This document shows, in pieces, positions 3,919-26,765 of a stretch of 64,000 nucleotides of DNA. Under the pieces are notes generated by a model. It had not been told where the DNA came from and did not search any database. It was given only the letters and a program-made list of their open reading frames with translations. Both the position numbers and the translations under genes were made by a program. The DNA is from Chrysomallon squamiferum. Lineage: Eukaryota > Animalia > Mollusca. Location: NCBI GenBank assembly GCA_012295275.1, contig CM022676.1, forward strand, positions 16,058,001 through 16,122,000, in the 5' to 3' direction. Within the stretch, counting starts at the first letter, position 1, and every line of letters begins with the position of its first letter.

Positions 3919-4063
3919 TCCCAGTACGGTTAGTGAATGGAAGAGGAATACCAACACAAGGTCGAGTTGAGATTCAAGTAAACGGGACGTGGGGAACAAT
4001 TTGTAAAAATAGTTTTGACACAAAAGACGCTGGTGTTCTCTGTTCAATGATGGGATTTAGTCG
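3919..4063 (+). CDS. Gene 1 SRCR1 half-exon A (W-type)
   Basis: ttcag|..cg|gtaaaa; [47 protein letters not shown], the classic VRL-GRVE-WGTxC SRCR N-half. Confidence 0.93.
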
Positions 4064-4145
4064 GTAAAAGAAAATATATCTTTTGTGTAATATTCCGTTG
4101 TTACGAACAACAAGATGATGAATATGTCTCATTATTCTATTTGTA

Positions 4146-25100: not shown

Positions 25101-26765
25101 CTAAGAGTAAGTGTGTGTATGTCAGTATATGTAGGCATACCACGGACCATCTTCCTAACAAAGAGTCTGCCTACGTGTCTGTATGTGGTGTATTTCTGTA
25201 TGTGATGCGTTTATGTATGTTTATGTGTATGCATGTATGTAAGTCATCTGTCCATATTTTGTGTTTGTACGTGTGGGCATATTTTGTGTGTGTTTGTGTG
25301 TATACATATATGTCTATGTGTGATGTGTGCATTTCTTTGTGTTTGTGTGTGATATGTATATGACGTCTGTCTGTACGCCCCTGTTTCTCGTGTTTTCACA
25401 TAAAAAGATTCAACTGTATAAGAAAGAAATGTCACATAAAATAATAACATAAAACGAGTCTCTGTTCAGTAGTCATCGTGAAGAATGATCGGCTATGATT
25501 ATTTCATGTAACGCCTTTCATATTAATGTCGTTCATATAAATAATGAGGATACATCGAGTTAGTTGTTTTATAGCATTTGCTTTATGTATGTGCACGTAA
25601 ATATGTTAATATGTGTGGGTTTGTTTGTGTTATTATCCAAGAATCCATAAGTTACATTATTCAGTAATTACCTTTTAATTAACTATTATTAACTTTTATA
25701 TAGTTATTTATTTTGTTAAATATATTATTTTTCTCTCATTTTCTTATTTTAACGTATTAGTCAATAACTGTATTGCTCTTCTTATTATTTTTATGATTGT
25801 GTTTGCTGTTATTATTGTTATTATTATTATGATTATTATTATTATTATTACTACTACTACAGAGAAATCATTTAACTTTGAATTGTGAGAAGTCTGTAAA
25901 TTTTATTATTAAAACCGAAAAGCTACCACTTAGAATACTTGTCTCTTTCAAATCACAGGAACGTTTCTGAACCGCAGTCTCGAACGTACGACAATCTTGC
26001 TTTTGAGCCTGGTAAGTGCAACATTTTCTAAATGTTTATTTGAAGACTTACTTTACTGAAAGCTGTTTAAATTCTGCTCGTTCAATACATATTAAGACGT
26101 CTGTGGTGTCCATCAGGAGAGAATGAATGAAGCTACGAAAGGAAGTGATCAATGAACAAGAAAAGAAAGGACTATGAAACAGAATGGTGAAAAGTAATAA
26201 TGAAATAATAATAATATAAAAAAGTTGTCATTTATATACTGGGCTAAGAACGTGTGAGTTATTTTGCATAACGTTAATGAGATAACAGAACTAATTTATA
26301 TTATCTCCTCAGATACGCAAAGTTTAATATTTGTCTGTGATAAATACAGAGTGTTTATAAACTAATGTTTGTGCAGTATCACAGGTTGTTTTATAAGCAC
26401 CATAAACCAATTTCTATCTTAATAGCTGAGTAAATTAGAATCTGGTGAAGTTAGGCTGTATATCGCGTTTGACATTGTTTTCTCTGTGTCACTCCTGTTT
26501 TTTATTTTTATTATTATTAATTTTTTATTTTTTTTTTTTTTAATGTGCGTGTATGTATGTGTGTGTATATATATATATATATATATAATAATATGTTGTT
26601 GTTGTCTTTTGTTACTTCTACGTTTAATTGTTAATGTATGACTTACTGTTTTTTGAAACGAAACATAAATACGTATATATGTTTTTTTTATTTCTTGTAG
26701 GGAACAGTCCAGAACCGAATCTGTATGAAGTACTTAGTGTCAAGGATAATGGACGAAGAAATTAA
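3919..26765 (+). CDS. Gene 1 (5'-incomplete, 20 exons): SRCRx5-(Ig-Ig-FN3)x2-TM-cytoplasmic ITAM-like receptor, about 1,175 aa in window if the FN3-2 frameshift is corrected
   Basis: Manual splicing of AG/GT-bounded exons with compatible phases from 3919 to stop TAA 26763-26765. The only lesion is a +1 T in exon 20967-21267. No signal-peptide exon seen in 1-3918. Confidence 0.85.
4241..4416 (+). CDS. Gene 1 SRCR1 half-exon B (Z-type)
   Basis: tttag|..t|gtaagt; [58 protein letters not shown]. Confidence 0.93.
7345..7489 (+). CDS. Gene 1 SRCR2 half-exon A (W-type, conserved Cys to Ser)
   Basis: [47 protein letters not shown]; 145 nt, AG/GT. Confidence 0.9.
7659..7705 (+). pseudogene. Degenerate orphan SRCR A half-exon fragment in a gene 1 intron
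   Basis: ttt gac aca aga gat gct gct gtt ttc tgc tca ctg atg aca ttt = [15 protein letters not shown], homologous to [15 protein letters not shown]. Confidence 0.65.
8336..8511 (+). CDS. Gene 1 SRCR2 half-exon B (W-type)
   Basis: [58 protein letters not shown]; ttcag| ... g|gttcgc. Confidence 0.9.
9291..9435 (+). CDS. Gene 1 SRCR3 half-exon A (Y-type)
   Basis: [47 protein letters not shown]; ttcag| ... ca|gtaaga. Confidence 0.93.
9607..9782 (+). CDS. Gene 1 SRCR3 half-exon B (Y-type)
   Basis: [58 protein letters not shown]; cctag| ... a|gtatgt. Confidence 0.92.
9943..10020 (+). repeat. (CT)n microsatellite
   Basis: Direct reading. Confidence 0.98.
10382..10526 (+). CDS. Gene 1 SRCR4 half-exon A (Z-type)
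   Basis: [47 protein letters not shown]; ttcag| ... cg|gtaaac. Confidence 0.93.
11220..15530 (+). repeat. Intragenic duplication (Z-B exon plus following long intron) of about 4125-7200
   Basis: Collinear intron blocks, e.g. GAGACTGAAAGTGAAGAGTCGCTCGCCTAAC at about 5708 and about 13184. Confidence 0.9.
11378..11553 (+). CDS. Gene 1 SRCR4 half-exon B (Z-type)
   Basis: [58 protein letters not shown]; ttcag| ... t|gtaagt. Confidence 0.93.
15631..15775 (+). CDS. Gene 1 SRCR5 half-exon A (X-type)
   Basis: [47 protein letters not shown]; ttcag| ... cg|gtaatt. Confidence 0.93.
16404..16573 (+). CDS. Gene 1 SRCR5 half-exon B (X-type)
   Basis: [56 protein letters not shown]; ttaag| ... t|gtcagt. 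Confidence 0.92.
17258..17512 (+). CDS. Gene 1 Ig-like domain 1
   Basis: [53 protein letters not shown]; phase 1-1 exon, tctag| ... t|gtaagc. Confidence 0.9.
18039..18317 (+). CDS. Gene 1 Ig-like domain 2
   Basis: ..[39 protein letters not shown]; DxGxYxC motif; tgcag| ... t|gtaact. Confidence 0.92.
18535..18834 (+). CDS. Gene 1 fibronectin type III domain 1
   Basis: [51 protein letters not shown]; 300 nt, acaag| ... g|gtacgc. Confidence 0.92.
19184..19438 (+). CDS. Gene 1 Ig-like domain 3 (duplicate of Ig1)
   Basis: [44 protein letters not shown]..; 255 nt, AG/GT. Confidence 0.9.
20480..20758 (+). CDS. Gene 1 Ig-like domain 4 (duplicate of Ig2)
   Basis: ..[30 protein letters not shown]..; 279 nt, AG/GT. 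Confidence 0.9.
20967..21267 (+). CDS. Gene 1 FN3 domain 2 (duplicate of FN3-1) with +1 frameshift
   Basis: 301 nt versus 300 nt in copy 1; gagaaTTcagctc versus gagaaTcagctc (21006-21007) gives TAA at 21047-21049; the rest of the exon is open in the shifted frame. Confidence 0.85.
21821..21934 (+). CDS. Gene 1 transmembrane exon
   Basis: [37 protein letters not shown]: hydrophobic helix plus basic stop-transfer; ttcag| ... a|gttcgt. Confidence 0.88.
22328..22361 (+). CDS. Gene 1 cytoplasmic micro-exon 1
   Basis: tttag|GA AAT GCA AAA GAT GAA CAT GTG CAT GGA ACA AG|gtaaca ([10 protein letters not shown]); phase 1 to 2 bridges its neighbours exactly. Confidence 0.7.
22770..24771. repeat. 32-bp minisatellite, about 62 tandem units
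   Basis: Unit GTGTACAGTTGTGTTAATGACACT + variable octamer (CGGCTGAC / CGGCAGTC / GGGCTGTC / GTCCTGTC / CGGCAGAC). Confidence 0.97.
25959..26011 (+). CDS. Gene 1 cytoplasmic exon 2 (first YxxL)
   Basis: cacag| ... g|gtaagt; [17 protein letters not shown]; phase 2 to 1. Confidence 0.78.
26701..26765 (+). CDS. Gene 1 terminal coding exon (second YxxL)
   Basis: tttcttgtag|; [25 protein letters not shown]. Confidence 0.75.

What the first reader, a model, noticed from the sequence alone, without database searches (positions are those of the whole stretch)
3919..26765. Hybrid SRCR-Ig-FN3 transmembrane receptor with an ITAM-like tail: candidate undescribed invertebrate immune/phagocytic receptor family
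Seen: 20 phase-compatible exons give SRCRx5-(Ig-Ig-FN3)x2-TM and a short (about 55 aa) tail with two YxxL motifs. Established: group A SRCR domains (MARCO, SR-A type) bind polyanionic or microbial ligands; Ig+FN3 stalks typify IgSF surface receptors; paired YxxL motifs recruit Syk-family kinases. Inference: this joins a scavenger-type recognition head, an IgSF stalk and direct tyrosine signalling in one chain. I do not recognise a named gene with this architecture. Most exons are absent from, or out of frame in, the ORF track.
Basis: partly seen in the sequence, partly recalled or inferred. Interest (0 to 1): 0.85.

Follow-up and report, generated by a model that had tools for sequence, protein, structure and literature searches.

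The report
Snail scavenger-immunoglobulin hybrid surface receptor
This stretch holds exons for five scavenger domains, an immunoglobulin/fibronectin stalk with one frameshifted exon, a membrane anchor and a two-tyrosine tail; they likely splice into one snail cell-surface receptor of a kind already predicted, but not described, in a deep-sea vent snail, which would bind microbial or matrix ligands and likely signal their uptake.

Summary
The exons are real. All 20 have AG acceptors and 19 GT donors, and Pfam or tblastn confirms SRCR, Ig and FN3 domains. They are not all phase-compatible: the second FN3 exon has a 1-nt insertion, so the 20-exon model stops at residue 1015, before the membrane helix. 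Skipping that exon (1076 aa) or the second module (898 aa) opens the frame through the YDNL-x12-YEVL tail. No signal-peptide exon was found upstream in the window. The architecture is not unique. Five RefSeq gene models of the vent snail Gigantopelta aegis are SRCR-Ig-FN3-TM, labelled DMBT1-, Dscam- or titin-like. They share the SRCR-to-Ig junction, and four share a homologous TM exon. None was found in other species, and ten literature searches found no description. Best reading: exon shuffling grafted an SRCR head onto an expanded molluscan Ig-FN3 receptor family whose tails are enriched in ITAM-like pairs. Against full function: only SRCR5 keeps the complete cation-binding set, SRCR2 lacks a cysteine, and the G. 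aegis SRCR members lack ITAM spacing. RNA junctions are untested. Verdict: new variant of a known kind.

The parts
3919..4063 (+). SRCR1 5' half-exon (phase 1-2)
4241..4416 (+). SRCR1 3' half-exon (phase 2-1); SRCR1 is a hybrid of the SRCR2-type 5' half and the SRCR4-type 3' half
7345..7489 (+). SRCR2 5' half-exon; first conserved Cys is Ser, acidic pair lost
8336..8511 (+). SRCR2 3' half-exon
9291..9435 (+). SRCR3 5' half-exon
9607..9782 (+). SRCR3 3' half-exon
10382..10526 (+). SRCR4 5' half-exon
11378..11553 (+). SRCR4 3' half-exon
15631..15775 (+). SRCR5 5' half-exon; acidic pair after the first Cys intact
16404..16573 (+). SRCR5 3' half-exon; second acidic pair and Glu intact; joins Ig in phase 1
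17258..17512 (+). Ig domain A1 (phase 1-1)
18039..18317 (+). Ig domain B1 (phase 1-1), 70-77% identical to G. aegis Ig-FN3 receptors
18535..18834 (+). FN3-1 (phase 1-1), intact
19184..19438 (+). Ig domain A2 (internal duplicate)
20480..20758 (+). Ig domain B2 (internal duplicate)
20967..21267 (+). FN3-2: 301 nt, 1-nt insertion near 21006, stop at 21047-21049 if included whole; in-frame cryptic acceptors downstream (e.g. 21028)
21821..21934 (+). Transmembrane exon, homologous to the TM exon of G. aegis SRCR-Ig-FN3 genes
22328..22361 (+). Predicted tail exon 1
   Evidence: splice sites and phase only
25959..26011 (+). Predicted tail exon 2: YDNL motif overlapping an NxxF motif
   Evidence: splice sites and phase only
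26701..26765 (+). Predicted last exon: YEVL motif and stop codon

Best explanation
The exons likely splice into a type I surface receptor of a gastropod likely close to the vent snail Gigantopelta aegis, in which five group A SRCR domains sit on an Ig/FN3 stalk above a membrane helix and a tail with two YxxL motifs; the frameshifted second FN3 exon would be skipped, entered at a cryptic acceptor, or be an assembly error, and the receptor likely binds anionic microbial or matrix ligands through a calcium-bridged site and signals their uptake through the tail tyrosines. Shown: the exons, phases, domains, the frameshift and the homology to G. aegis models. Origin (inferred): every stalk exon is phase 1-1 and each SRCR exon pair is phase 1-1 overall, so SRCR cassettes from a tandem SRCR expansion could be grafted onto a member of an expanded Ig-FN3-TM family. 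The Ig-Ig-FN3 module then duplicated internally. Mechanism (inferred from SALSA/MARCO, oyster CgIgR and SNX17 literature): SRCR5, and partly SRCR3 and SRCR4, would bind ligand through cations, and the stalk would space the head from the membrane. Clustering would let a Src-family kinase phosphorylate the YDNL and YEVL tyrosines and recruit a Syk-type kinase. The same first motif overlaps an NxxF sorting signal that would route the receptor through endosomes.
For: Five G. aegis RefSeq genes have SRCR-Ig-FN3-TM order: XP_041372788.1, XP_041372972.1/971.1, XP_041372560.1, XP_041372561.1 and XP_041372562.1. The predicted SRCR5-to-IgA1 junction aligns without a break to three of them at 41-46% identity over 125-141 aa. 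The TM exon's five of six best hits among 172 fetched proteins are these SRCR-linked proteins (best 57%, E 2e-8 for that small database). All 9 window SRCR domains fall with 4 of 7 P0009 domains and 1 of 16 P0013 domains in a 98% SH-aLRT branch of a 59-row quick tree. SRCR exons show purifying selection against the neighbouring inverted copy (dN/dS 0.52, 418 codons, Fisher p 4e-4). Skipping FN3-2 keeps the frame to the natural stop. In Biomphalaria a lectin-Ig-FN3-TM receptor has an FN3 exon with nonsense variants that is variably excluded (PMC10875847, section 15 read). In the wider Ig-FN3 family 25 of 74 tails have YxxL/I-x6-12-YxxL/I against a shuffled mean of 0.58 (maximum 4 of 500 shuffles), and a 12-residue spacer occurs 4 times. 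G. aegis has two SYK-like genes annotated (PMC7895826 supplement). An oyster Ig receptor with such a tail binds bacteria and recruits Syk (PMC6994640, passages).
Against: No RNA junction was obtained; the three candidate runs hold only 3-6% of the sampled words. FN3-2 is frameshifted and SRCR2 lacks a cysteine. The SALSA-type acidic set is complete only in SRCR5 (1 of 5), against 4 of 6 parsed in P0009 (mapping by motif and spacing, not by structure). dN/dS between the two stalk modules is 0.75, not significantly below 1 (p 0.25). None of the five TM-bearing G. aegis SRCR genes has an ITAM-spaced pair: three have several tyrosine motifs at other spacings and two have none. The window motif lacks D/E three residues before the first Tyr, although so do 19 of the 25 relatives. 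Tail exons rest on splice signals and phase, with only weak homology (E about 0.003 in 162 proteins). Ig and FN3 trees do not firmly group the window with the SRCR-linked G. aegis genes (support 79 and unresolved). The G. aegis models are themselves predictions.
Confidence: 0.55

Rival explanations
1. The copy is a decaying paralogue in a birth-and-death cluster. The family is real, but this gene is a young pseudogene or a null allele.
For: Frameshift in FN3-2, Cys loss in SRCR2, and cation site eroded in 4 of 5 SRCR domains. A neighbouring SRCR copy at 56-59.7 kb has stop codons and a truncated exon. A Tc1-type transposase remnant lies at 2453-2758. No signal exon was found in the window. Stalk dN/dS is 0.75.
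Against: 19 of 20 exons are open with canonical splice sites. SRCR dN/dS is 0.52 against 0.96 for the comparison with the decayed copy. The only lesion lies in a symmetric, duplicated exon that can be skipped.
Confidence: 0.2
2. The receptor is functional but works in epithelial adhesion, matrix or shell/scale secretion, or plain endocytosis, and the tail tyrosines are sorting signals, not an ITAM.
For: SRCR 'DMBT1' copies of the scaly-foot snail are highly expressed in mantle and scale-secreting epithelium (PMC7142155, passages). Two G. aegis SRCR-Ig-FN3 genes have 21-22 aa tails with no tyrosine motif. P0281 and P0192 carry NxxY motifs and the window carries NxxF; SNX17 recognises NxxY/F (PMC11589680, passages).
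Against: The published scaly-foot DMBT1 domain table has no Ig or fibronectin entries, so that expression pattern may not extend to these genes. Both tail tyrosines carry Leu at +3 within ITAM range, which 0.09% of shuffles of the tail reproduce (a test made after the motif was seen).
Confidence: 0.17
3. The main product is secreted or split. Either FN3-2 inclusion yields a soluble SRCR5-Ig-Ig-FN3-Ig-Ig decoy, or the SRCR array and the Ig-FN3-TM part are separate genes.
For: The 20-exon model ends before the TM. G. aegis XP_041372563.1 is SRCR5-Ig-partial FN3 without a TM. In the window's other SRCR clusters the SRCR5-type exon is followed by another SRCR, and tblastn found no Ig exon there.
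Against: A stop four exons before the last would normally trigger nonsense-mediated decay (established knowledge, recalled). The SRCR5-to-Ig intron is only 684 nt and the junction is conserved in G. aegis.
Confidence: 0.08

Closest known systems
Gigantopelta aegis RefSeq models XP_041372560.1-563.1, XP_041372788.1, XP_041372971.1/972.1 ('DMBT1-like', 'Dscam-like 1', 'titin-like')
   Same: Group A SRCR array, then Ig, then FN3, TM and tail; same junction in the three inspected; homologous TM exon in four genes; internal repetition of an Ig-FN3 module (five or six copies in 972/971).
   Different: Automatic predictions only. Their modules are Ig-FN3 or Ig5-FN3, not Ig-Ig-FN3, and their tails lack ITAM spacing. 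The window gene combines their TM exon with an Ig domain shared with P0009 and the Ig-only receptors.
Molluscan Ig-FN3-TM receptors labelled nephrin-, hemicentin-, syg-2- or CEACAM5-like (G. aegis, Haliotis); orthogroup 'CEACAM5' has 130 genes in G. aegis and 101 in Chrysomallon squamiferum (PMC7895826 source data)
   Same: Same Ig and FN3 domains (IgB 70-77% identical) and paired YxxL tails.
   Different: The head is an Ig domain, not SRCR, and they keep two further Ig domains that the window lacks. Identity of this family with that orthogroup is inferred from names, not tested.
Oyster CgIgR (PMC6994640)
   Same: Molluscan type I Ig receptor with a YxxL-x(6-12)-YxxL tail.
   Different: Five Ig domains, no SRCR or FN3; function shown by experiment; has the acidic residue before the first Tyr.
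Biomphalaria lectin-Ig-FN3-TM candidates such as BSUD.12903 (PMC10875847)
   Same: Pattern-recognition head on an Ig/FN3 stalk in a gene cluster; FN3 exon with nonsense variants that is variably skipped.
   Different: C-type lectin head instead of SRCR; homology to the window gene not tested.
Scaly-foot snail 'DMBT1' expansion, 65-70 copies (PMC7142155, PMC7736800)
   Same: Tandem SRCR expansion in a peltospirid snail.
   Different: The published domain table lists no Ig or FN3 domains.
MARCO/SR-A, SALSA/DMBT1 and CD163
   Same: SRCR fold; SRCR5 keeps the acidic residues of the SALSA cation sites by motif.
   Different: MARCO/SR-A have collagen stalks. DMBT1 has eight-cysteine SRCRs with CUB and ZP domains. 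None has an Ig-FN3 stalk.
Teleost SRCR9-Ig-TM proteins (e.g. P0084, P0077)
   Same: SRCR array above Ig domains and a TM helix.
   Different: No FN3; no YxxL/I/M/V motif in the five tails of this type that were checked; probably independent (not tested).
Hydractinia Alr1-type receptors (bioRxiv 10.1101/2022.03.25.485889)
   Same: Clustered invertebrate Ig receptors with ITAM-like tails defined by the same x6-12 consensus.
   Different: No SRCR; allorecognition role; homology not tested.

Membership tests
Group A SRCR domain | Six conserved cysteines (PMC10855680) | tested here: met
   4 of 5 domains have six at the same positions as P0009; SRCR2 has five.
SALSA/MARCO-type cation-binding SRCR | Acidic residues equal to SALSA D1019, D1020, D1058, D1059, E1086 (PMC7043408) | tested here: inconclusive
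   All five in SRCR5 only; partial in SRCR3 and SRCR4; first pair lost in SRCR1 and SRCR2. Mapped by motif and spacing; binding not testable.
DMBT1 | Group B (eight-cysteine) SRCRs plus CUB and ZP domains | tested here: not met
   Six-cysteine domains; no CUB or ZP among the exons scanned or in the G. aegis relatives.
Class A scavenger receptors (MARCO, SR-A) | Collagenous stalk with a single terminal SRCR | tested here: not met
   The stalk is Ig/FN3 with five N-terminal SRCRs.
ITAM-bearing receptors | YxxL/I-x(6-12)-YxxL/I in the cytoplasmic tail | tested here: met
   YDNL and YEVL with a 12-residue spacer in the predicted tail; depends on unconfirmed tail splicing.
ITAM-bearing receptors | D/E three residues before the first Tyr (consensus quoted in PMC6994640) | tested here: not met
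   Ser at that position; only 6 of 25 relatives have it.
ITAM-bearing receptors | Phosphorylation-dependent Syk recruitment | not testable with these tools
   Needs biochemistry.
G. aegis SRCR-Ig-FN3-TM group (undescribed) | Order SRCRn-Ig-FN3-TM with conserved SRCR-to-Ig junction | tested here: met
G. aegis SRCR-Ig-FN3-TM group (undescribed) | Homologous TM exon | tested here: met
   Top hits P0281, P0192, P0282 among 172 proteins; P0009's TM does not match.
G. aegis SRCR-Ig-FN3-TM group (undescribed) | Single origin of the fusion (Ig and FN3 domains form one clade) | tested here: inconclusive
   IgA grouping has support 79; FN3 unresolved.
G. aegis SRCR-Ig-FN3-TM group (undescribed) | N-terminal signal peptide | tested here: inconclusive
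   None found in 1-3918; a homologous signal exon belongs to the neighbouring copy at 37403-37445, and colinearity puts this gene's exon about 2.7 kb before the window.
Dscam, nephrin or hemicentin orthologues | Family-specific domain counts and orthology | not tested
   These names are automatic labels on the relatives; the atlas search gave only generic Ig-FN3 clusters below 0.9.

The most novel reading that the evidence does not exclude
Symbiont-hosting vent snails built a new receptor family by fusing their two expanded gene families, SRCR arrays and ITAM-tailed Ig-FN3 receptors. The result is a scavenger receptor that signals through its own ITAM with no adaptor chain. Skippable FN3 modules and variable SRCR arrays tune reach and specificity for recognising or culling bacterial symbionts.
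Probability: 0.2. Interest if true: 0.75.

Novelty: new variant of a known kind. Interest (0 to 1): 0.45.

Why it matters
It points to an unrecognised, mis-named receptor group in vent snails that joins a pattern-binding head to a tyrosine-signalling tail. These animals farm bacteria inside their cells, and both parent families are reported as expanded in them. The group gives concrete candidates for symbiont recognition and a clear case of exon shuffling between two expanded families. Interest is moderate: SRCR mosaics and ITAM-like Ig receptors are each well known in invertebrates, the architecture is already in RefSeq, and this copy may be decaying.

Tried and rejected
RNA support: the run search found three RNA runs of one study with 3-6% of the words. 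That share is no evidence, and no junction data were obtained. No whole genome is held, so family size in this species and the 5' end could not be checked. Rescue of FN3-2 by an alternative IgB2 donor: none found. Missing Ig exons (the two extra Ig domains of G. aegis receptors) inside introns: none by tblastn with five queries. Signal exon in 1-3918: two weak hydrophobic candidates in one frame, rejected. Other tail exons with tyrosine motifs: only low-complexity intron frames near 24.8-25.2 kb, rejected. ESM Atlas search with P0009 670-1469: generic NCAM/fasciclin clusters at 0.86-0.87, leads only. The tree had four mis-framed rows and is replaced. The 30.3 kb and 60.8 kb ORFs have no Pfam match. 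Three look-ups of earlier findings returned nothing. The reading 'architecture unique to this gene' was rejected. The labels DMBT1 and class A scavenger receptor were rejected. No structure or complex prediction was run.
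Full report
Observation. The window is AT-rich animal DNA (30% GC, one 200-base gap at 45981-46180). I re-derived the exons from the sequence. Five SRCR domains are each split into a 145-nt phase 1-2 exon and a 170-176-nt phase 2-1 exon. Two Ig-Ig-FN3 modules follow, made of phase 1-1 exons, then a TM exon (21821-21934) and three small tail exons ending in a stop at 26765. All 20 have AG acceptors and the 19 non-terminal ones GT donors. 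Pfam on 14 exons confirms SRCR, Ig and fn3; the IgA exons score below the curated cut-off and the TM exon matches no family. The three SRCR half-exons not scanned are tblastn hits of a relative.

The error in the finding. FN3-2 is 301 nt and differs from FN3-1 by one inserted T near 21006. With all 20 exons the frame closes at residue 1015, before the membrane helix. Leaving out FN3-2 gives 1076 open residues, and leaving out the second module gives 898; both end in the tail with YDNL-x12-YEVL. In-frame cryptic acceptors exist downstream of the insertion, for example at 21028, and no alternative donor rescues the frame. Whether the insertion is real or an assembly error could not be told. SRCR2 has lost its first cysteine. 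No signal-peptide exon was found upstream in the window.

Relatives. All 12 hits to the IgB1 exon are Gigantopelta aegis proteins at 70-77% identity, so the host is inferred to be a gastropod near this peltospirid vent snail; the species was not determined. One hit, P0009 (XP_041372788.1), is SRCR7-Ig5-FN3-TM. A profile of seven G. aegis Ig-FN3 receptors gave 7660 hits among 1.84 billion representatives. Of the best 150, two carry SRCR domains, both G. aegis: P0132, SRCR3-(Ig-FN3)x5-TM, and P0192, SRCR4-Ig-FN3-TM. A search with the P0192 stalk added P0281, P0282 and the TM-less P0286 among 16 hits. That makes five TM-bearing genes, all on a contig of the same length, three with consecutive accessions that P0286 continues. 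RefSeq labels them DMBT1-, Dscam- or titin-like. No protein of another species had SRCR, Ig and FN3 together in the 120 listed of 125 hits, the top 150, or the 16 hits. These searches are capped and word-limited, so absence elsewhere is not shown. Haliotis relatives have the stalk and tyrosine tail without SRCR. Teleosts have SRCR9-Ig-TM proteins without FN3.

One gene or two. The predicted SRCR5-IgA1 junction aligns unbroken to P0192, P0009 and P0132, each with Cys-Gln, one residue, Gly at the boundary. The TM exon's best matches among 172 fetched proteins are P0281, P0192 and P0282. In a 59-row quick tree all nine window SRCR domains group with four P0009 domains and one P0013 domain at 98% (for nine other mollusc proteins only the first three domains each were included). 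Ig and FN3 trees do not resolve whether the fusion arose once. The window gene is a mosaic: TM exon of the P0192 group, IgB shared with P0009 and the Ig-only receptors, and two Ig domains of those receptors absent.

Alive or decaying. Against the inverted four-SRCR copy at 46.5-52.2 kb, which is open with six cysteines per domain, dN/dS is 0.52 (p 4e-4). Between the two stalk modules it is 0.75 (p 0.25), and against the stop-bearing copy at 56 kb it is 0.96. A precedent for a tolerated lesion exists: a Biomphalaria lectin-Ig-FN3-TM receptor has nonsense variants in an FN3 exon that is variably excluded (PMC10875847, section 15 and passages). RNA evidence for this gene is lacking (one search gave only small word shares).

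Ligand end. SALSA SRCR8 binds heparin, hydroxyapatite and a bacterial protein through cations held by D1019, D1020, D1058, D1059 and E1086, and MARCO has the same site (PMC7043408, passages). Mapped by motif and spacing, only SRCR5 keeps all five positions. SRCR3 and SRCR4 keep some, and SRCR1 and SRCR2 have lost the first pair. The head is therefore not five equivalent polyanion binders; the outer domains are either diversified or decaying.

Signal end. The tail meets YxxL/I-x6-12-YxxL/I, the consensus used for oyster CgIgR (PMC6994640, passages) and Hydractinia Alr (bioRxiv 2022.03.25.485889, passages), at the upper limit and without the acidic residue at -3. Shuffles of the tail give such a pair 0.09% of the time (post hoc). 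Of the 150 profile hits, 74 had a predicted TM and a 20-250 aa tail; 25 have the pair against a shuffled mean of 0.58, with spacers of 7-12 (these proteins are related, so not independent). Yet none of the five SRCR-bearing G. aegis genes has it: three have two or three YxxL/I motifs at other spacings and two have none. The first window motif overlaps NxxF, and two relatives have NxxY; SNX17 reads NxxY/F (PMC11589680, passages). Signalling and sorting are both open.

Literature. Ten full-text searches (seven on the architecture, family or host, three on motifs and mechanism) found no description of an SRCR-Ig-FN3-TM receptor group. The library lacks most subscription journals. SRCR with Ig or FN3 is noted in general for invertebrates (PMC7308585, PMC6208332, PMC8242945, PMC5119243, PMC10855680; passages). 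PMC11999971 (passages) does not mention SRCR. The scaly-foot snail has 65-70 'DMBT1' SRCR genes, expressed in mantle and scale epithelium (PMC7142155, PMC7736800; passages). Its domain table has no 'immunoglobulin' or 'fibronectin' entry (searched it; one search read part 1 of 2; supplement file 13 was not searched). G. aegis has an expanded 'CEACAM5' orthogroup (130 genes) and two SYK-like genes (PMC7895826, passages and supplement rows).

Verdict. The feature is real but not as written. It belongs to a small, mis-labelled and apparently undescribed group of SRCR-Ig-FN3-TM receptors so far seen only in G. aegis and this window. It works most plausibly like a scavenging receptor with its own tyrosine tail (0.55), with decay (0.2), a non-immune epithelial or endocytic role (0.17) and a secreted or split product (0.08) as rivals. 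It is not a DMBT1 or a class A scavenger receptor. Novelty: new variant of a known kind. Interest 0.45.

Noticed in passing
window 46488-52152, minus strand: A second cluster of four intact six-cysteine SRCR domains (8 exons), 73-88% identical to SRCR2-5 but in a different order. It runs towards the assembly gap and has no Ig exon after it in the window.
   Followed up: partly
window 56014-59744, plus strand: A decayed SRCR cluster: stop codons in two exons, one exon broken off mid-domain, 5' halves missing. It is an inverted duplicate of 50922-53238.
   Followed up: partly
window 37403-37445: A small exon whose frame resembles the signal peptides of the G. aegis SRCR-Ig-FN3 proteins; a degenerate copy lies near 44670-44715. 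It marks the 5' end of a neighbouring paralogue that runs into the gap.
   Followed up: partly
window 34796-34880, with broken copies near 32207 and 62487: An ATG-started hydrophobic frame with a weak donor; possibly a first exon, but its phase does not fit the 37403 exon.
   Followed up: partly
window 2453-2758: A Tc1/mariner-type DDE transposase remnant (Pfam DDE_3, E 2e-8), sitting where similarity to the paralogue's pre-signal-exon intron ends.
   Followed up: partly
window 22770-24771: A 32-bp minisatellite of 63 copies (93% matches) inside the intron between tail exons 1 and 2.
   Followed up: no
window 30038-33588 and 60361-64000: A 3.6-kb direct duplication at 89% identity; parts also match 0.9-2.2 kb and 40-42.5 kb, showing repeated 5' regions of the cluster. 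Its ORFs have no Pfam match.
   Followed up: partly
window 11192-11215: A possible 24-nt in-frame mini-exon with AG and GTAAGT boundaries between the two halves of SRCR4. Read by eye; the donor is not conserved in the duplicate intron, so it may be chance.
   Followed up: no
window 45981-46180: A 200-base assembly gap between a plus-strand 5' region and the minus-strand SRCR cluster; local mis-orientation is possible.
   Followed up: no
proteins P0075, P0077, P0084, P0086, P0097: A conserved SRCR9-11-Ig-TM protein of about 1266 aa (P0075 longer, unnamed) across many teleosts, labelled DMBT1-like or M130-like.
   Followed up: no
proteins P0132-P0278: A large family of Ig(n)-FN3-TM receptors (named members are molluscan) with ITAM-spaced tails in 25 of 74, scattered under nephrin, hemicentin, turtle, contactin and syg-2 labels.
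   Followed up: partly
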